Origin: a virus
Direction: 5' to 3' (one strand)
Virus genome (UHGV): UHGV-1732480
DNA length: 21,195 nt
Part shown: positions 1 to 19,671 of the stretch, piece by piece
How the letters are laid out: every line of letters starts with the position of its first letter
How positions within the stretch are numbered: position 1 is the first letter of the stretch
Program-made: the position numbers and the translations under genes
The notes under the pieces: generated by a model
The model's database searches: none
What the model was told of the DNA's origin: nothing
What the model saw: only the letters and a program-made list of their open reading frames with translations

Positions 1-2604
<2,604 letters not shown>

Positions 2605-3940: not shown

Positions 3941-4639
3941 TTACTGCGAAAGTTTGTTAATGGAAAGGAAACCGCCAAAATTAGCCACCATGCCGCGCAT
4001 CTCACACCCGCGCATGCACTTGCTGCATCTGTCCTTACGGATATCCGTGGTGGGGTTGTCGAACTCATCCGCCACCGCAGGACCGTTATACCCGCATTCA
4101 TCTCCCCGGTAATCCCACATACAGGTGTTCGCCAGCATGATGCGACCGGGAAACAGCGCCCCGTCCGTCTCGGTCGGTGTGGCCAGCACAAACGAGGCCG
4201 TCATGGCTGTCAGCTGCGACATCTGCTCCACCACCCAGCGGTCACTCAGCTCCTGCTCCGGGTCCGCCTCCGGATTGCCCGCAACGAAATTCACCGCATC
4301 CAGAAAACGGGCATACACCCGGCGGCGGACCACCGTGGCCCCCACCAGACTCTGCAGGTCTTCCGCCATCCCGGTGACCAGACCGAACAGATTGGACACC
4401 GTCAGCGACGGTCTGGCACTGCTGCCCCGGCCGTTCATCTCAAAGCCGCTGCCGTCAATCGGGTATGCCTCATACTTACGCCCCTGCCAGGTGACCGGCT
4501 CCCCTTTTTCATTCAGCTCATTACAGAAAAAATACCGCTCACCACCCTGTACCGTCAGGTCGATTTCCCAGAGTACCACCCGCGGTGACTGCTCTGACTT
4601 AACCGACTCGTTCAGACTTTCTTCGCGAATATCCTGCAT
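3941..4639 (-). CDS. L: Tail tip protein L
   Basis: 232-aa ORF MQDIREESLNESVKSEQSPRVVLWEIDLT...GGFLSINKLSQ, near-colinear with recalled lambda gpL. Confidence 0.92.
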   Translation of the reverse strand: MQDIREESLNESVKSEQSPRVVLWEIDLTVQGGERYFFCNELNEKGEPVTWQGRKYEAYPIDGSGFEMNGRGSSARPSLTVSNLFGLVTGMAEDLQSLVGATVVRRRVYARFLDAVNFVAGNPEADPEQELSDRWVVEQMSQLTAMTASFVLATPTETDGALFPGRIMLANTCMWDYRGDECGYNGPAVADEFDNPTTDIRKDRCSKCMRGCEMRGMVANFGGFLSINKLSQ

Positions 4640-9559: not shown

Positions 9560-10089
9560 CGTTTTATCGCAATCCTCAGTTGTTGTTTCAGCGCGTATGC
9601 CAGTTCTTTAGGCAGGCGTTCACGCCGGATACGGTCAACATTCTCATCAAATGCCTGTTTCAGTGGGGCCGCCATCGGGATTTTCACCACATCAATGGGG
9701 TAACGGTTTTTCCCGGCCACACGCTGCATGACATGCCAGCGACCATTTTTTAATCGCTGAATAAATGCCCGCTGATACCGATGCTGACCGGCTTTAAGTA
9801 TGCTGTTCGGGCGACGCCCCAGCATCCTGATCCCCAGCTTAATCACAGGGAGATCACCGCGGTTAACGATAATTCTGGCATTCGGATTTCTGACCGTCGC
9901 CCGTTTCAGTCTGGACCGTTCCTTAACCAGTTTCCGGCGAACCTTTGTCTCCCGGGCAACCTGTGATGAAGACTGATTAATCGCCGTTGTGGCCACGCGG
10001 TTAATGGCCATTGCTGAAGCCGCCGGAATGGCGTTTTTACGAACCCGGCTCAGATTGTCAATCGCCTGATCAAGCCCTTTTATCGCCAT
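9556..10089 (-). CDS. Z: Tail completion protein Z
   Basis: 177-aa ORF MAIKGLDQAIDNLSRVRKNAIPAASAMAINRVA... matches recalled lambda gpZ; ATGA overlap with U. Confidence 0.9.
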   Translation of the reverse strand: MAIKGLDQAIDNLSRVRKNAIPAASAMAINRVATTAINQSSSQVARETKVRRKLVKERSRLKRATVRNPNARIIVNRGDLPVIKLGIRMLGRRPNSILKAGQHRYQRAFIQRLKNGRWHVMQRVAGKNRYPIDVVKIPMAAPLKQAFDENVDRIRRERLPKELAYALKQQLRIAIKR

Positions 10090-15443: not shown

Positions 15444-15646
15444 AACCTCACTCCCAGCGGACGACGGCGACGTCGGGTTGTCCCCAGTACCGACTCCGCA
15501 TCATTGATCGCCCGGTTAAGCTCATCCAGAGAAGCCTCCGTATATTCAATTCTGCGACCATCTTTCTGGACAGACACCACCCGTTTACCGGTTAATAAAT
15601 CAAGGCGCGCCTGACGCAGCGCCTGCAGTTCAGCGACTGTAACCAT
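15440..15646 (-). CDS. W: Head-tail joining protein W
   Basis: 68-aa ORF MVTVAELQALRQARLDLLTGKRVVSVQKDGRRIEYTEASL... matches recalled lambda gpW. Confidence 0.9.
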   Translation of the reverse strand: MVTVAELQALRQARLDLLTGKRVVSVQKDGRRIEYTEASLDELNRAINDAESVLGTTRRRRRPLGVRL

Positions 15647-17481
15647 TCACTCCTCCGGACAGCTTCGCTGCCAGTTCTTTAAGGGTTGGCCGGGTCGTCT
15701 CTTCTTCCCGGGATTTTGCCAGTACAGCCAGATCAAGCTGCCAGCGTTGCACGGACACACGTAATGCCGCATAGGCATACACCAGGCAGTCCAGCGCTTC
15801 GTTACGCCGCTTTTTGTTATCCCACAGCAGACGCATCTTTCCTTTTTCCCACTTCTCCACAAGCTCTTCCGCGACCAGTTGCTGCGCCTCTGTCTGCGAA
15901 AAAATCTCCGGATCATCAGGAAAACGGATGGCATACGACGTGGCTTCATCCGCAGGAGTGGGATCGGCTTTCATACGGGCATAGAGAATTTCTTTTGCGG
16001 TGTCCGTCCCCACTTCACACAGATACACGCCCCGCTGATTGCGGGTTTTCGGCATGGTGATCACCGGCTTGCCATAGACAGATGCGCCTTTTACCGGCAG
16101 CACCCGGAAAACACCGTGTTTTTTTGACCTCTGATAGACAATTTCACCATCGATCCCCCCGGTGTCCCAGCAGACACGGGAAATGGTCATTTCGGTTCCG
16201 TCTGCATGGCAGTATTTTTTGTTGATCGCCGCATCCACACGTAACAGCGTCTCTTCCTCATCGGGACGGCCCATAATGATGATTTTATCCACCAGAAAAG
16301 CTTCCTCTCCCGGTGCCCATCCCCAGACATACATCTCAAAACGGTTTCGCTGCGAGTCAATGCCCGCCGTCAGATAAACCACCCGGGCTGGCACCGCCGC
16401 CGTGTAATGCACGACCTTATCCATCAGTACCTGGTGATCGAGTTTTTCGCCCACGGCCTCTTCCCAGGTCTCGCCCAGCGTGGTGTTCACAAAGGTTTTC
16501 AGGCCGTTGGGATCTTTCAGTGCATCCAGCCAGTCATAGACTATCTGTACCCAGGTGGTGAACGGACTGTACGCCGTCCAGATATGGAACGTGATGGAGC
16601 GCGGCGGCGGAATTTCATTATCCGCGGCGCTGAAAAACGTCAGACCGTCACGGGTCCACATCCCCGTGTTTTCACAGATCCTTACACCGCAGATTTCGCG
16701 TACACCGCTCTTGTAAGCACGCCATGCACTTCCGCAGATACTGCGCCTCCCCACAGTGCGGGCAGGGCACATAGAAACGCATGAAATGCGCCGACTCGTT
16801 GGCCGCTTTTTCGATCTGGCAGGTGCCTTTGATTTTAGGCGTCGAGCCGCGAATGGATTTGGGCCATACAGAGCCCTCAATACGTTTATCCCCAAGCAGG
16901 GTTGGCGACCCCTCTTTTTCGACATCCGGTTCGAACGAGGAAAGTTCGTCATAGCAGACCACGTCCACGGATTTTTCACGGTAGTTTTTAGCGGCAGCCC
17001 CGCCCAGGCACCAGAAGCCCACGCCCGATGAAAAACGTTTCAGCGTGAGGGTATTATCACGATGTTTACGCCCAAACCACGGTGCAAGATCGAGTAAAAC
17101 CGGCACATCCCTGATCGTGGGTTCCACATGAGATTTCATAAAATCTTCAGCAGCAGAATCCGTGGGCTGGAAAAGAAGGCTGTTGCGTGATTTATGCTCA
17201 ATAAAATAAGCCTCCACTCCCAGCAACATCTTTGTATAACCAACACGGGCAGATTTAATCAGATTAACAGTGCGGATCCGGTCATTCCCCATGCTGTTCA
17301 TGATGGCAACCTGAAACGGCAGTGTTTCCCACCGCCCCGGGGTGTAAGATGACTCTTTCGGAAGGTAATAATGTCGATCTGCCCACTGAACTGTCGTCAG
17401 AGGGACAGGAATTTTTAGCGCAAGGAGGCCGGTTGCTATCGCTCCTGCAGAATTAGCCGCCCTCAGTTCGTCTGAAATCAT
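15630..17481 (-). pseudogene. A: Terminase large subunit A, split between two reading frames (frameshift in about 16681-16734)
   Basis: ORF 16672..17523 carries the lambda gpA-like N-terminal part (…WADRHYYLPKES…RWETLPFQ…PCPHCGEAQYL) and ends in a stop. ORF 15630..16979, in another frame, carries the C-terminal part (ICENTGMWTRDG…ALDCLVYAYAALR). Start set at ATG 17481 (MISDEL…). Confidence 0.75.
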
Positions 17482-18001
17482 CAATCCACCTGCGCACATT
17501 CTCACCGGCTTCAGAAGCCACATCGGATGCTTTCGCGATTTCAGTTTTCACAGCATCAAGATGTACGGGTGATATATCAGGGTATTTACGCTGCAGTGTC
17601 TGAGGGACACGGACAAGGATCCCTGATATATTCTGTGCCACTCGCTGAAAGATGTAGGTAAATAACTCCGTCTCGAGGACAAGGCCTTCCTCACGAGCAT
17701 TTTTCAGCTCCTGTGCATCGGCCTGTGCCTTCGTCAGTCGGTAACGTTCGTAATCAATGGTGCAGGGCTGAAGGTCTGATTCGCTGGCAGCCCTCAAATC
17801 CTCGATCTCTTTACGGAGTTTTTCGTTTTCAATATCAGCTTCCCTCTGCGCATACCACTGAATGGCAGCAGTTGTATCAAAAACTGATTCAGTCCCTTTC
17901 CCTCCACCAGAAACTAGTGGTAACCCCTGACTCTGCCAGGCGGTGATGGTCCTGACATCAACGCCAAAAATATCGGCCAGTTTTTTCTTATTGACGTTCA
18001 T
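17453..18001 (-). CDS. Nu1: Terminase small subunit Nu1
   Basis: 182-aa [39 protein letters not shown]... matches recalled lambda Nu1; 3' end overlaps A start as in lambda. Confidence 0.93.
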
Positions 18002-18190
18002 ACACTCCCCCGGGAACCAGAAAGGATCTGAAAATGGCGTTTTCTAACAAAAACAGCCTTTGTCAGATCCTTTTATATTTTTAAAATTCTATTGATAATC
18101 AATCAGTTAAAAAGAAGAAGAACGGATCTGATTTTTCCCTAAAAATTTTCATAAATAGCGAAAACCCGCGAGGTCGCCGCCCCGTAACCG
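18002..18190 (-). other. cos: cos site: cosB (18002-18164), cosN with the lambda 12-nt cohesive-end sequence (18171-18182), and cosQ-side flank
   Basis: Plus strand CATAAATAGCGAAAACCCGCGAGGTCGCCGCCC is the reverse complement of the lambda left end GGGCGGCGACCTCGCGGGTTTTCGCTATTTATG, sitting immediately upstream of Nu1. Confidence 0.9.
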
Positions 18191-18388
18191 GTCGGATCGC
18201 CGGAAAGGACCCACGAAATGATAATTATTATCATCTATATAAGGTTTATCACAACATGTGTGTACGCCATCAAACCACGAGAAATAATCAATTATGACGC
18301 AGGTATCGTATTAATTGATCTGCGTCAAATTAACGTAAAAGCAACTTCAGATAATACAAATCAGCAACACTGAATATGGGGAAACATT

Positions 18389-18574
18389 ATGTCATCAAAG
18401 AACAGAACCCGCAGAACAACAACCCGCAACATCCGATTTCCAAACCAGATGATTGAACAAATTAACATCGCTCTTGATCTGAAAGGTTCAGGAAACTTTT
18501 CAGCGTGGGTTATTGAAGCCTGCAGAAGAAGGCTGTCAACAGAGAGTTCGGGTATGAATTACATAATTAAGTAA
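18389..18574 (+). CDS. Small (61 aa) predicted ribbon-helix-helix-like DNA-binding protein, unknown role
   Basis: ORF with GGGGAA 6 nt upstream of ATG. Basic N-terminal arm, then beta-strand-like RNIRFPNQ, helix, G-x-S/N turn (KGSGNFS), helix: an RHH-like pattern. Opposite strand to the late genes, in the AT-rich island. Confidence 0.5.
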   Translation: MSSKNRTRRTTTRNIRFPNQMIEQINIALDLKGSGNFSAWVIEACRRRLSTESSGMNYIIK

Positions 18575-18706
18575 CATGGTGTTCACAGAACACGCAGTTA
18601 CCGGACACATCAGTTTTCCATTCGCTCCCTGGCAGTACAGGCTTCCCCTCTGACGGGATAGCCTGAAAAAATAACACAGAAAATTATTTGTTATAATTAA
18701 TATAAC

Positions 18707-18847
18707 TTACTCAAAAAAAAGCGACGAGAAAATCAGCATCAACGAACAATAAGCGCCAATACGTGATAACAAATGGCAGCCATATTTATCTGCAGTATAA
18801 GCAATGGACAGGATAACCACTCCAGAAACCGTCAGCATAAAATCCAT
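18707..18847 (-). CDS. Small (46 aa) hydrophobic ORF, possible small membrane protein
   Basis: My translation MDFMLTVSGVVILSIAYTADKYGCHLLSRIGAYCSLMLIFSSLFFE; GGGGAAG 6 nt upstream of ATG; AT-rich context where chance ORFs are less common. Below the ORF-track cutoff. Confidence 0.3.
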   Translation of the reverse strand: MDFMLTVSGVVILSIAYTADKYGCHLLSRIGAYCSLMLIFSSLFFE

Positions 18848-19197
18848 TTGAACTTCCCCGGACAAAATCGACTCATCTAAAGATTTACAGCTCTTTTTAT
18901 TATCAATATGTTAAAAGTAAAATAAACAGATGTTCAATAACACGAATACAAAAACGTGCTGAAATTCAATGAATCCATTTCTGTGTCATCAATTAATAGT
19001 GATAAACATCCGGCTTCTTCCACCATCGCACCGGACAGGCGACTATGAGGGGACAACGCCGCGCTCCGTTAACGCGGTAAACCCCGGTGTGTGTCGTTTT
19101 TGATTATCCCCGCACACTCGCGCAGAGGAGTCTCCCTGTCGGGCTGCGGTCTCTGTTAATGCGGGGATACGGCGACAATACCGCGCATCAGCAAAAC

Positions 19198-19671
19198 CTA
19201 TTTCAGGCACTGAGTGCGGATATAGTCCTGCGCCCCTTCCAGCTGCTTCTGCATCAGCATCAACCGTTCTCTGAGAGTGAAATAATCCCGTTCAGCGGTG
19301 TCTGCCAGTTGGGGGCCGGTTGCATTATCCACGCGGGCGGTGCCGGTGGCTTCACGCACGGGACCTGGACAGGTGGCGTTGATACGCAGGCGCTTACGAC
19401 CAGCGGCAACGTCAGCGCGAAGAGTTTCATTTTCAGCTCTCGCATCGGCTAATTCCCTCGAGTATTTTGCATCGAGCGCAGCAACATCGCGCTGGCGCAC
19501 CTGCATATCAGTAATGGTTGCGTTCGCCAGCTTCAGTTCACTGGCTTTGTTATCGCGCTGCGCTTTGTAGGTAATCGCGTTATCACGGTAATGGTCTGTT
19601 GCCATCCACAGCGCTCCACAGGCCACCAGCAGAATAACGATAAACGCGGAAAGCATTCGGTTTATGTTCAC
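19198..19671 (-). CDS. Rz: i-spanin Rz
   Basis: 157-aa ORF with N-terminal TM and ...[45 protein letters not shown]... matching recalled lambda Rz. Confidence 0.9.
19260..19445 (-). CDS. Rz1: o-spanin Rz1 (lipoprotein), embedded in the +1 frame of Rz
   Basis: 61-aa [23 protein letters not shown]... with lipobox VSAC and proline-rich [11 protein letters not shown], matching recalled lambda Rz1. Confidence 0.85.

What the first reader, a model, noticed from the sequence alone, without database searches (positions are those of the whole stretch)
18190..19197. AT-rich accessory island between cos and Rz with a small RHH-like ORF and convergent small hydrophobic ORF
The stretch from about 18220 to 19020 is visibly much more AT-rich than the flanking structural genes, suggesting horizontally acquired cargo at the position where lambda carries bor. 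It contains a 61-aa plus-strand ORF with an RHH-like pattern (18389-18574) and a convergent 46-aa hydrophobic ORF on the minus strand (18707-18847) with its own SD and ~250 bp of AT-rich upstream DNA. A perfect 15-bp palindrome TGATAATTATTATCA (18219-18233) lies upstream of the RHH ORF and could be an operator. An RHH regulator next to a small membrane peptide resembles antitoxin/toxin or regulator/effector arrangements, but the convergent layout is not a classical type II TA locus. An Ile-rich 51-codon ORF (18218-18373) directly upstream of the RHH ORF may be spurious.
Basis: partly seen in the sequence, partly recalled or inferred. Interest (0 to 1): 0.55.

Follow-up and report, generated by a model that had tools for sequence, protein, structure and literature searches.

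The report
Lambda cos-flank gene plus small moron
This stretch is the ordinary right end of a lambda-like E. coli prophage: a widely conserved small gene of unknown function (YlcI/YnfO, DUF3950) and a Fur-box-like palindrome beside the packaging site, plus a separate 495-bp AT-rich insert that carries a 46-residue membrane peptide gene.

Summary

- **Unit 1, 18136-18543.** This is lambda's own right end at about 89% identity. It holds cosN, cosQ, the palindrome, a conserved leader and the 61-aa gene. That gene is Pfam DUF3950 (YlcI/YnfO), is under clear purifying selection, and occurs at 9564 places in 77% of complete E. coli genomes. This part is backbone, not cargo.
- **Unit 2, about 18544-19038.** This is a discrete indel that is missing precisely in another prophage. 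G+C is 0.37, and it occurs in 734 of 5426 genomes. Its 46-aa ORF is an E. coli-only orphan. The ORF is probably real (pN/pS 0.35; other five frames 0.59-1.59) and is predicted to form a two-helix hairpin. It lies on the late-transcript strand, in the slot where lambda carries ybcW, ybcV and bor.

An RHH fold for the 61-aa protein is plausible but not shown. The palindrome travels with lambda-type cos, not with DUF3950. It equals the Fur 7-1-7 consensus, and a published Fur ChIP-exo peak lies on its counterpart in CFT073. The two genes are not an obligate pair, so a toxin-antitoxin reading is not supported. The 51-codon ORF is spurious.

The parts
17453..18001 (-). Terminase small subunit (Nu1/NohD-like). 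This is the first gene after cos on the late strand.
   Evidence: ORF. PGAP calls it 'terminase small subunit' in the 100% identical locus of E. coli 118UI.
18171..18182 (.). cosN cohesive-end sequence AGGTCGCCGCCC, the reverse complement of lambda's 12-nt end.
   Evidence: The lambda record J02459 ends at window 18183. The sequence is invariant in lambda, DLP12, SHP24, N15 and phage 21. String checked.
18202..18212 (.). cosQ (GGAAAGGACCC), the packaging-termination site.
   Evidence: Invariant block in A4. In the phage 21 record the same block is annotated 'R4 ... recognition for terminal cos cleavage'.
18218..18234 (.). 17-bp palindrome ATGATAAT-T-ATTATCAT. Its core TGATAATnATTATCA equals the Fur-box 7-1-7 consensus. 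Best reading: a host Fur-binding site attached to lambda-type cos.
   Evidence: An exact 7-1-7 is present in lambda, DLP12, SHP24 and 118UI. N15 and phage 21 keep it with 2 mismatches each; in N15 the two outermost bases have changed together, so that pair stays complementary. A Fur ChIP-exo peak in CFT073 at 1424699-1424711 overlaps the homologous site.
18250..18388 (+). Conserved non-coding leader upstream of the DUF3950 gene. It contains inverted repeats at 18287-18319 and 18295-18327.
   Evidence: Only 14 variable columns among window, lambda, DLP12 and SHP24, with no third-position bias (6/5/3). Repeats found.
18218..18373 (+). 51-codon Ile-rich ORF. Not a gene.
   Evidence: A 7-bp indel separates the ATG and Ile-rich start from the rest in lambda, DLP12 and SHP24. 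There is no codon-position bias. The PHROG hit only shows that others have annotated the same ORF.
18389..18574 (+). ylcI/ynfO-family gene (DUF3950, 61 aa). A small basic protein, probably an RHH-type DNA binder. It is transcribed against the late strand.
   Evidence: Pfam PF13132 at 67.5 bits (cut-off 25) and NCBIfam NF041551 at 35.2 bits (cut-off 30). Against lambda, the first 50 codons have 14 synonymous and 4 non-synonymous codon changes, with 18 of 23 substitutions at the third position. AF2 gives helices at 19-32 and 37-55. The tail after about residue 52 is variable.
18544..19038 (.). AT-rich moron-like cassette of about 495 bp. Its left junction lies inside the 3' end of the DUF3950 gene.
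   Evidence: Absent precisely in E. coli contig RDUX01000037 (L007), where 18543 joins directly to about 19039. G+C is 0.374 against 0.591 for the neighbouring spacer. Present in 734 of 5426 E. coli genomes.
18707..18847 (-). 46-aa hydrophobic two-helix peptide gene. It equals ECs_1538 of Sakai prophage Sp6 and WP_000347013.1. Orphan.
   Evidence: Annotated as 'hypothetical protein'. Only near-identical E. coli homologues exist. pN/pS is 0.35 against the 80%-identical SHP24 variant, compared with 0.59-1.59 in the other five frames; simulation gives 0.15%. GRAVY is 1.11. AF2 predicts helices 2-22 and 24-44. The GGGGAA Shine-Dalgarno is conserved.
18885..18964 (-). Conserved block upstream of the 46-aa ORF. 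Candidate own promoter, with a -10-like GATAAT at 18899-18904 on the minus strand.
   Evidence: Identity to the divergent SHP24 variant is 77-93% here, against 57-67% in the 3' flank 18575-18694. The strict promoter scan did not call a minus-strand site here, so the hexamer assignment is my own reading.
19039..19197 (.). GC-rich conserved spacer between the cassette and the Rz stop codon.
   Evidence: About 98% identical (3 mismatches) between the window and L007 over roughly 19040-19188; the last ~9 bp before the Rz stop are not alignable. G+C is 0.591.
19198..19671 (-). Rz-like i-spanin with embedded Rz1 (19260-19445). This is the end of the lysis cassette.
   Evidence: ORFs. Annotated 'lysis protein'.

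Best explanation
The interval is the right-arm end of a lambda-type prophage, read in reverse orientation. It consists of two independent modules.

**Module A (18136-18543) is conserved backbone shared with phage lambda itself.** It contains cosN, cosQ, a 17-bp palindrome, a conserved leader of about 140 bp and a ylcI/ynfO-family gene.
- The gene encodes a small basic protein. It is most likely a ribbon-helix-helix type DNA-binding dimer. The proposed parts are a basic N-terminal arm, a strand around TRNIRFP, and two helices. This is inferred.
- The gene is transcribed against the late transcript, so it is probably made in the lysogen.
- The palindrome is most likely a binding site for the host iron regulator Fur, not for the phage protein. 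In that case leftward transcription starting next to cos, here into the DUF3950 gene, would be iron-responsive. This is inferred by analogy with CFT073.

**Module B (about 18544-19038) is a moron-like cassette in the variable slot where lambda has ybcW, ybcV and bor.**
- It encodes a 46-residue membrane hairpin with two hydrophobic helices joined by a short loop carrying K, H and R.
- The gene lies on the late strand. It would therefore be transcribed with Rz and terminase during lytic growth, and possibly from its own conserved upstream block in the lysogen.
- Its most likely role is as a small inner-membrane accessory protein, in lysogenic conversion, superinfection exclusion or lysis modulation. 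The specific role is not shown.

The two genes are neighbours through mosaic recombination. They are not a functional pair.
For: **Module A is backbone**
- 89% identity to lambda across 18136-18540.
- The same order Rz-bor-ybcV-ybcW-ylcI-cos-nohD is seen in lambda and in K-12 DLP12.
- The DUF3950 core occurs at 9564 places in 4184 of 5426 genomes.
- The gene is real: family hits above the curated cut-offs and 14 synonymous against 4 non-synonymous codon changes.

**RHH-like signals for the 61-aa protein**
- AF2 predicts helix-loop-helix after a disordered basic arm.
- hhalign places NIRFP on Arc's NLRWP, in register.
- PHROG HicB-like family at E 0.012.
- Two of the three Foldseek hits are, from my own knowledge, RHH-family proteins (HP0222, AtaR2), though neither is significant.

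**Palindrome as a Fur site linked to cos**
- Exact 7-1-7 in five loci with lambda-type cos.
- Retained in N15 and phage 21 exactly up to the point where homology ends.
- Absent from HNH/Terminase_2 prophages that still have DUF3950.
- A CFT073 Fur ChIP-exo peak lies on the homologous site, and the flanking genes are up 2.1-2.3 log2 in the fur deletion.

**Module B is a cassette**
- Clean indel with distinct G+C.
- Found in 734 genomes.

**The 46-aa ORF is probably coding**
- pN/pS test and simulation.
- Only synonymous changes in the Sakai and EH1910 variants.
- Conserved Shine-Dalgarno and predicted helical hairpin.

**Late transcription crosses this slot**
- Same strand as Rz and terminase.
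- In lambda, CRISPRi on lambdap79, the last annotated gene before cos, scores as essential although the gene is dispensable. I read this as a polar effect on late transcription across cos. The paper proposes polarity only for the nin genes.
Against: - Fur binding was not measured on this sequence. The same study lists no Fur peak under the gene names nohD/nohB, ylcI, ybcW or ynfO in K-12, despite DLP12's perfect motif (a coordinate search, also found none, but it used approximate coordinates for MG1655 only).
- In W3110, ylcI and ynfO counts go down in the fur deletion, not up. The counts are very low, 2-7 against 0.
- Conservation of the palindrome in all lambda-type cos regions could instead reflect a packaging role.
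- The coding test for the 46-aa ORF rests on essentially one divergent variant, and the simulation used a uniform substitution model.
- No sigma-70 site passing the scan, and no clear terminator, flanks the 46-aa ORF.
- No expression data were found for it.
Confidence: 0.6

Rival explanations
1. The 61-aa RHH protein binds the palindrome as its operator and regulates or neutralises the convergent 46-aa membrane peptide, as a regulator/effector or antitoxin/toxin pair.
For: - The 61-aa protein has an RHH-like pattern.
- The palindrome lies upstream of its gene.
- The small hydrophobic peptide resembles membrane toxins.
- The cassette is always found next to a DUF3950 gene, because its left junction lies inside that gene.
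Against: - The DUF3950 core is at 9564 places, the cassette at 788. Lambda, DLP12 and L007 have the gene without the peptide.
- The palindrome is missing from DUF3950 loci with HNH/Terminase_2 packaging. It is present next to cosQ in N15 and phage 21, where the downstream sequence is different.
- The palindrome is 155 bp from the ATG.
- The genes are convergent, not an operon.
- PADLOC gives no hit.
Confidence: 0.08
2. The 46-aa ORF is not translated. The cassette would then be non-coding, for example a regulatory or sRNA-bearing moron, or simply AT-rich recombination debris that annotation pipelines fill with an ORF.
For: - It is an orphan with no homologue outside E. coli prophages and no family in any library.
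- Frameshifted variants exist (P0002, P0004, P0008, P0010).
- The block upstream of the ORF is conserved at least as well as the ORF.
- Prophage late regions are known to hold sRNAs.
Against: - pN/pS is 0.35 in this frame only, and the ORF stays open across 25 substitutions.
- The Shine-Dalgarno is conserved.
- Changes in the Sakai variant are synonymous only.
- There is no Rfam match, and the predicted RNA fold is unremarkable (z = -0.93).
Confidence: 0.17
3. The 46-aa peptide is a type I toxin controlled by an antisense RNA. That RNA could be read-through of the convergent DUF3950 transcript or a separate sRNA.
For: - Its size and hydrophobicity are typical of membrane-active type I toxins.
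- No convincing terminator lies between the DUF3950 stop codon (18574) and the ORF's 3' end (18707). Convergent read-through is therefore possible.
Against: - No promoter-like site antisense to the ORF was found. The only plus-strand site, at 18884-18912, points away from it.
- There is no Rfam family and no stable structure.
- Two helices rather than the usual single one.
- The gene lies in the late operon, where a toxin would be made anyway.
Confidence: 0.08
4. The palindrome is a packaging element, an accessory part of cosQ and the termination signal of lambda-type cos. Its likeness to a Fur box would then be incidental.
For: - It lies 6 bp from cosQ.
- It is kept in every lambda-type cos compared here, including N15 and phage 21, and homology stops right after it.
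- It is absent from prophages with another packaging type.
- In N15 the two outermost bases have changed together, so that pair stays complementary.
- No Fur peak is listed at DLP12 in K-12.
Against: - A Fur ChIP-exo peak lies exactly on the CFT073 counterpart, with derepression of the flanking genes in the fur deletion.
- The match to TGATAATnATTATCA is 15 of 15.
- The cos papers I could read describe cos as cosQ, cosN and cosB only. The primary cosQ papers were not available.
- The two roles are not mutually exclusive.
Confidence: 0.25

Closest known systems
Right end of phage lambda and the DLP12/Qin cryptic prophages of E. coli K-12 (Rz - bor - ybcV - ybcW - ylcI/ynfO - cos - Nu1/nohD)
   Same: Same order and orientation of Rz, the DUF3950 gene, the palindrome, cosQ, cosN and the small terminase gene. 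Identity to lambda is 87-89% over 18136-18540.
   Different: bor, ybcV and ybcW are replaced by a 495-bp cassette with an unrelated 46-aa ORF. The C-terminal tail of the DUF3950 protein differs from about residue 52 onward.
Morons of lambdoid phages, in the sense of Hendrix and colleagues. Examples are lambda bor and lom and HK97 gene 15 (definition from general knowledge).
   Same: A discrete extra segment between conserved genes. Its composition differs clearly from its neighbours. It holds a single small gene, is present in some relatives and cleanly absent in others.
   Different: A flanking promoter and terminator could not be shown. The gene is on the late strand, unlike bor. Function and expression are unknown.
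Ribbon-helix-helix repressors (Arc, Mnt, CopG, HicB C-terminal domain, AtaR)
   Same: Small size, a basic N-terminal arm, an N-I-R-F-P strand-like motif aligned to Arc's N-L-R-W-P, and two helices joined by a G-x-G-N-x-S turn. Weak PHROG HicB-like and Foldseek HP0222/AtaR2 hits.
   Different: No statistically significant sequence or fold match. No operator has been identified. There is no partner toxin.
Fur boxes of E. coli: the 19-bp consensus read as overlapping 7-1-7 units TGATAATnATTATCA (Baichoo and Helmann 2002, from memory)
   Same: 15 of 15 match at 18219-18233. Fur occupies the homologous site in CFT073 under iron-replete conditions.
   Different: It is a single 7-1-7 unit rather than the overlapping pair of the classical box. 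It lies beside a phage packaging site. It is not reported as bound in K-12 DLP12.
lambdap79 (ybcW-like), the last annotated lambda gene
   Same: A small gene on the late strand, immediately before cos and convergent with the DUF3950 gene. This is the slot that the 46-aa ORF occupies here.
   Different: Unrelated sequence. By my reading of its sequence, lambdap79/YbcW is a soluble-type 68-aa protein. It is reported as the trigger of the Vulcan NADase defence. Nothing of that kind is known for the 46-aa peptide.

Membership tests
YlcI/YnfO family (Pfam DUF3950, NCBIfam NF041551) | Profile match above the curated cut-off | tested here: met
   PF13132 at 67.5 bits against a cut-off of 25, E 9e-19. 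NF041551 at 35.2 bits against 30. phrog_949 at E 9e-32.
YlcI/YnfO family (Pfam DUF3950, NCBIfam NF041551) | Position next to cos or the small terminase gene of a lambdoid prophage, on the strand opposite to late genes | tested here: met
   Same arrangement in lambda, DLP12, SHP24, 118UI, EH1910 and L007.
Ribbon-helix-helix (RHH, Arc/MetJ-like) DNA-binding proteins | Beta-strand, helix, helix fold forming an intertwined dimer | tested here: inconclusive
Ribbon-helix-helix (RHH, Arc/MetJ-like) DNA-binding proteins | Significant sequence or profile similarity to a recognised RHH family | tested here: not met
   No Pfam RHH family for any of 19 members, even at E 10. The PDB profile search found nothing relevant. 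hhalign against Arc gave E 0.014 and probability 3%. PHROG HicB-like gave E 0.012.
Ribbon-helix-helix (RHH, Arc/MetJ-like) DNA-binding proteins | Sequence-specific binding to a repeated operator | not testable with these tools
   Needs EMSA or footprinting. Candidate repeats are at 18287-18327.
Moron (lambdoid accessory cassette) | Discrete segment present or absent between conserved flanking sequences | tested here: met
   L007 joins window 18543 directly to about 19039, with roughly 98% identity to the window for about 150 bp to the right of the junction.
Moron (lambdoid accessory cassette) | Nucleotide composition distinct from the neighbours | tested here: met
   G+C is 0.374, against 0.591 for the spacer and 0.551 for Rz. 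The conserved cos flank on the other side is equally AT-rich.
Moron (lambdoid accessory cassette) | Own promoter upstream and terminator downstream; expressed in the lysogen | tested here: inconclusive
   No minus-strand sigma-70 site passes the scan at 18848-19038. The only downstream terminator-like site is weak, at 18593-18579. A conserved upstream block at 18885-18964 hints at a promoter. Expression cannot be tested here.
Type II toxin-antitoxin locus | Two adjacent co-transcribed genes that co-occur | tested here: not met
   The genes are convergent. DUF3950 is at 9564 places, the cassette at 788. No PADLOC hit.
Type I toxin-antitoxin locus | Small hydrophobic toxin plus an overlapping antisense RNA with its own promoter | tested here: inconclusive
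   The peptide is hydrophobic. No antisense promoter, no Rfam family and no unusual RNA fold were found.
Fur-binding site (Fur box) | Match to the 7-1-7 inverted repeat TGATAATnATTATCA | tested here: met
   Exact match at 18219-18233. Exact also in lambda, DLP12, SHP24 and 118UI. The consensus itself is from my own knowledge.
Fur-binding site (Fur box) | Occupied by Fur in vivo, with iron- or Fur-dependent expression of neighbouring genes | tested here: inconclusive
   The published CFT073 ChIP-exo peak P53 lies on the homologous site, and C_RS07340 and C_RS07370 are up in the fur deletion. No peak is listed at DLP12 in MG1655 or W3110, and ylcI/ynfO counts there are too low to judge. Nothing has been measured on this prophage.

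The most novel reading that the evidence does not exclude
Lambda-type cos regions, including lambda's own, carry a previously unremarked host Fur box 6 bp from cosQ. It would make the first leftward gene beside cos an iron-responsive, lysogen-expressed unit. In most E. coli lambdoid prophages that gene is the DUF3950 protein, an RHH-type regulator present in up to 12 copies per genome. Its targets could lie in the prophage (cos or late region) or in the host. The variable slot behind it, filled here by the 46-aa membrane peptide, would be cargo riding on this unit.
Probability: 0.2. Interest if true: 0.55.

Novelty: new member of a known kind. Interest (0 to 1): 0.3.

Why it matters
The immediate value is corrective. 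What looks like one AT-rich island is a conserved lambda backbone segment plus one small swappable cassette, so it should not be counted as a new regulator/toxin system.

Two modest points are worth keeping.
- **The DUF3950 (YlcI/YnfO) gene.** It is one of the most widespread prophage genes in E. coli, found in 77% of complete genomes and in up to 12 copies. It is present in phage lambda itself, yet no function has been assigned. An RHH-type DNA-binding role is cheap to test.
- **The palindrome beside cosQ.** It matches the Fur box perfectly and lies under a published Fur ChIP-exo peak in CFT073. This suggests iron control of the cos-adjacent lysogenic-conversion slot of lambda-like phages, which the papers I could read do not discuss.

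The 46-aa peptide (ECs_1538 in O157 Sakai) adds one more small-membrane-protein candidate in pathogenic E. coli prophages.

Tried and rejected
**Searches and tests that found nothing**
- Rfam scan of 17800-19400 at E up to 1: only chance-level hits.
- PADLOC for both proteins: nothing.
- Pfam, PHROGs and NCBIfam for the 46-aa peptide: nothing.
- Exhaustive HMMER search of 1.84 billion representatives with the 46-aa peptide: only itself plus repetitive low-complexity hits.
- tblastn of the peptide against plasmids gave nothing. Against phages it hit only two near-identical E. coli records.
- RNA fold of the presumed 46-aa mRNA: z = -0.93, unremarkable.
- Literature on DUF3950, YnfO, YlcI and ECs1538: no functional study found.
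- The primary cosQ papers were not available. I therefore could not check whether the palindrome was ever mutated.

**Ideas considered and dropped**
- The HnrS and anti-sRNA families of EHEC prophages. The reported HnrS copies are in Sakai prophages Sp9, Sp10 and Sp12 (late genes); the anti-sRNAs sit just 3' of PR'. Neither is reported for this cos-Rz slot or for Sp6.
- lambdap79 as the DUF3950 gene. It is the ybcW-like gene instead: it is the last annotated lambda gene, and it is lost by recombination with Qin, which keeps ynfO.
- The 51-aa ORF as a gene.
- A conserved promoter on the late strand overlapping the palindrome (scan hits at 18254-18224). The 7-bp indel destroys the spacing in lambda.
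Full report
**1. What the window is**

The window is part of a lambda-like E. coli prophage, read in the opposite orientation to the standard lambda map. The interval 18000-19250 is 100% identical to chromosomal prophages of many E. coli strains, for example 118UI. In those strains PGAP annotates, in window order:
- terminase small subunit (-)
- YlcI/YnfO family protein (+)
- a 46-aa hypothetical protein (-)
- a lysis protein, Rz (-)

The lambda record J02459 ends at window position 18183. Its cohesive-end sequence is at 18171-18182 and cosQ at 18206-18212.

**2. Check of the observation**

All three ORFs are at the stated coordinates.

The palindrome TGATAATTATTATCA is at 18219-18233. With the flanking A/T it is a 17-bp palindrome. 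It is unique in the window, against 0.04 expected even with two mismatches allowed.

G+C values (profile):

| Segment | G+C |
|---|---|
| 18183-18388 | 0.374 |
| 18389-18543 | 0.432 |
| 18544-19038 | 0.374 |
| 19039-19197 | 0.591 |
| Rz | 0.551 |
| whole window | 0.551 |

The AT-rich tract already includes cosB and cosN (0.376). It is wider than described.

**3. The interval is two modules, not one island**

*Cos-proximal part.* Aligning 18130-18600 with lambda gives 89% column identity up to about 18540. This covers cosN, cosQ, the palindrome, the leader and the first 50 or so codons of the 61-aa ORF. Lambda and K-12 DLP12 have the order Rz - bor - ybcV - ybcW - ylcI-like gene - cos - Nu1/nohD. 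This part is lambdoid backbone.

*Cos-distal part.* An E. coli contig with a related prophage (L007) joins window 18543 directly to about 19039. It is about 98% identical to the window for the next 150 bp or so. Hence 18544-19038 is a discrete cassette of about 495 bp.
- Its left junction lies inside the 3' end of the DUF3950 gene. This explains why proteins of this family share residues 1-52 and then diverge.
- The cassette is in 734 of 5426 complete E. coli genomes. It is at least 95% identical in all but one of them. Carriers include O157:H7 Sakai prophage Sp6, where the ORF is ECs_1538.
- The conserved DUF3950 core is at 9564 places in 4184 genomes.

**4. The 61-aa gene**

It belongs to Pfam DUF3950 and NCBIfam YlcI_YnfO_N, above both curated cut-offs. 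Against lambda, the first 50 codons show 14 synonymous and 4 non-synonymous codon differences. Eighteen of 23 substitutions fall at third positions. It is a real, constrained gene.

I found no functional study of it.

The RHH idea is reasonable but unproven.
- For: AlphaFold2 with 19 sequences gives pLDDT 70.5, a disordered basic N-terminus, and helices 19-32 and 37-55. That is what an RHH monomer would look like without its partner strand. hhalign puts TRNIRFPNQMIEQ on Arc's QFNLRWPREVLDL, in register. A PHROG HicB-like family hits at E 0.012. Two of the three Foldseek hits (HP0222, AtaR2) are, from my own knowledge, RHH-family proteins.

I put the RHH fold at about 0.6.

**5. The palindrome**

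An exact TGATAATnATTATCA is present in lambda, DLP12, SHP24 and 118UI. N15 has CGATAATAGTTATCG, where the two outermost bases have changed together and that pair stays complementary. Phage 21 has CGAGAATAATTATCA. In both, similarity to the window stops right after the palindrome.

Prophages with an HNH gene and a Terminase_2-type small terminase keep the DUF3950 gene but lack the palindrome. The palindrome therefore belongs to lambda-type cos, not to the DUF3950 gene. That argues against it being this protein's operator.

From my own knowledge, TGATAATnATTATCA is the 7-1-7 reading of the Fur box. The supplementary data of the E. coli Fur pan-regulon study (PMC10164565) support this.
- They list a ChIP-exo peak in CFT073 at 1424699-1424711 under iron-replete conditions. 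It is intergenic and next to a nohD-like operon.
- In NC_004431.1 this peak overlaps TGATAATTATTCTCG, which is 6 bp from cosQ and about 225 bp upstream of the small terminase gene. That is the same geometry as here.
- Genes on both sides (C_RS07340, C_RS07370) are up 2.1-2.3 log2 in the fur deletion.

The evidence is not uniform.
- No peak is listed at the DLP12 site in MG1655 or W3110.
- ylcI and ynfO counts in W3110 fall rather than rise in the fur deletion, from very low levels.
- A packaging role is a live alternative, and it is compatible with Fur binding. I could not read the primary cosQ papers.

**6. The leader and the 51-codon ORF**

The segment 18250-18388 is very well conserved among window, lambda, DLP12 and SHP24. 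There are 14 variable columns, spread 6/5/3 over codon positions. In the other three sequences a 7-bp indel cuts the ATG and Ile-rich start off from the rest of the frame. The ORF is not a gene.

The conservation suggests a regulatory leader. It contains inverted repeats at 18287-18327.

**7. The 46-aa ORF**

It has no family and no homologue outside E. coli prophages.

The one divergent variant (SHP24, about 80% identical) keeps a 45-codon ORF.
- pS is 0.37 and pN 0.13, so pN/pS is 0.35. The other five frames give 0.59-1.59.
- Only 0.15% of random-substitution simulations keep the frame open with a ratio that low.
- The two differences in the Sakai and EH1910 variants are synonymous.
- The GGGGAA Shine-Dalgarno is kept.

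Identity to SHP24 differs by region:

| Region | Identity to SHP24 |
|---|---|
| ORF | 70-87% |
| Block 18885-18964 upstream of the ORF | 77-93% |
| 3' flank 18575-18694 | 57-67% |

I take the ORF as probably coding, at about 0.8.

The product is very hydrophobic (GRAVY 1.11). It is predicted to form two helices, 2-22 and 24-44 (pLDDT 72), around a short loop carrying K, H and R.

It is on the same strand as Rz and terminase. The late transcript, which in lambda runs from Rz across cos into Nu1, would therefore include it. In lambda, CRISPRi on the dispensable last gene before cos (lambdap79) scores as essential. I read that as a polar effect on late transcription across cos; the paper itself invokes polarity only for the nin genes.

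A promoter of its own is possible, given the conserved upstream block with a GATAAT. The scan does not call one, and no convincing terminator follows the ORF.

**8. How the parts relate**

The two genes are convergent. They occur independently in the great majority of prophages, and the junction between them is a recombination joint. A toxin-antitoxin or regulator/effector unit is therefore unlikely.

The slot between the DUF3950 gene and Rz is a variable cargo site.
- Lambda and DLP12 carry ybcW, ybcV and bor.
- L007 carries nothing.
- This prophage carries the 46-aa cassette.
- Sakai Sp6 carries the cassette plus another small ORF.

In lambda the late-strand gene in this slot, lambdap79 (ybcW-like), was recently reported as the trigger of the Vulcan NADase defence. 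This shows that small genes at this position can matter. It says nothing directly about the 46-aa peptide.

**9. Verdict**

- The 61-aa gene is a known and very common family of unknown function, present in lambda itself.
- The cassette is a new but ordinary member of the moron class.
- The most interesting by-product is the Fur-box-like palindrome beside cosQ, conserved from lambda to N15 and lying under a published Fur peak in CFT073.

Overall interest is low to moderate.

Noticed in passing
window 18218-18234; L011 (CFT073 NC_004431.1) 1495-1509; L008 (K-12 DLP12) 4595-4609: The palindrome beside cosQ is a perfect Fur 7-1-7 box. It is conserved in lambda, DLP12, N15 and phage 21. A published CFT073 Fur ChIP-exo peak lies exactly on its counterpart, with flanking genes derepressed in the fur deletion. 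No peak is listed for K-12 DLP12.
   Followed up: partly
window about 16681-16735 (inside the large terminase gene, 15630-17523, minus strand): Relative to the otherwise 99.8% identical prophage of E. coli 118UI, the window lacks about 77 bp. This splits the large terminase gene into two overlapping ORFs of 283 and 449 aa. The prophage may be packaging-defective, or this may be an assembly error.
   Followed up: partly
window 19039-19197: A GC-rich (0.59) spacer between the cassette and the Rz stop codon is about 98% conserved in a prophage that lacks the cassette. It holds short ORFs on both strands, for example 19043-19210 (-) at 55 aa. In L007 the DUF3950 reading frame runs into it. Function unknown.
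   Followed up: no
window 18287-18327: Two nested inverted repeats, ATCAATTATGACG/CGTATTAATTGAT and TGACGCAG/CTGCGTCA, lie in the strongly conserved leader of the DUF3950 gene. They are candidates for an operator or an RNA hairpin.
   Followed up: no
window 18540-18574 and alignment A2: DUF3950 proteins share residues 1-52 and then carry many unrelated C-terminal tails. The recombination joint of the variable slot lies inside the gene, so each cargo swap rewrites the tail.
   Followed up: partly
L011 (CFT073) 1145-1465 (-) and 455-781 (+); L010 (phage 21) 480-533: In CFT073 and phage 21 the gene next to the Fur-box-like site is not DUF3950. It is a small ORF whose N-terminus (MKIRNILAISLATSSFSCLA...) looks like a signal peptide (by eye). 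A 'TonB family protein' gene lies about 0.6 kb further along in CFT073. This may be an iron-related moron.
   Followed up: no
window 18021-18073: A 23-nt inverted repeat, 83% complementary with a 7-nt gap, lies between the small terminase start codon and cosB.
   Followed up: no
lambda (L004 3137-3343, minus strand in window orientation): The ybcW-like lambdap79 occupies the same slot and strand as the 46-aa ORF. A 2026 preprint reports it as the activator of the Vulcan NADase defence. Escape phages lose it by recombination with the Qin prophage.
   Followed up: partly
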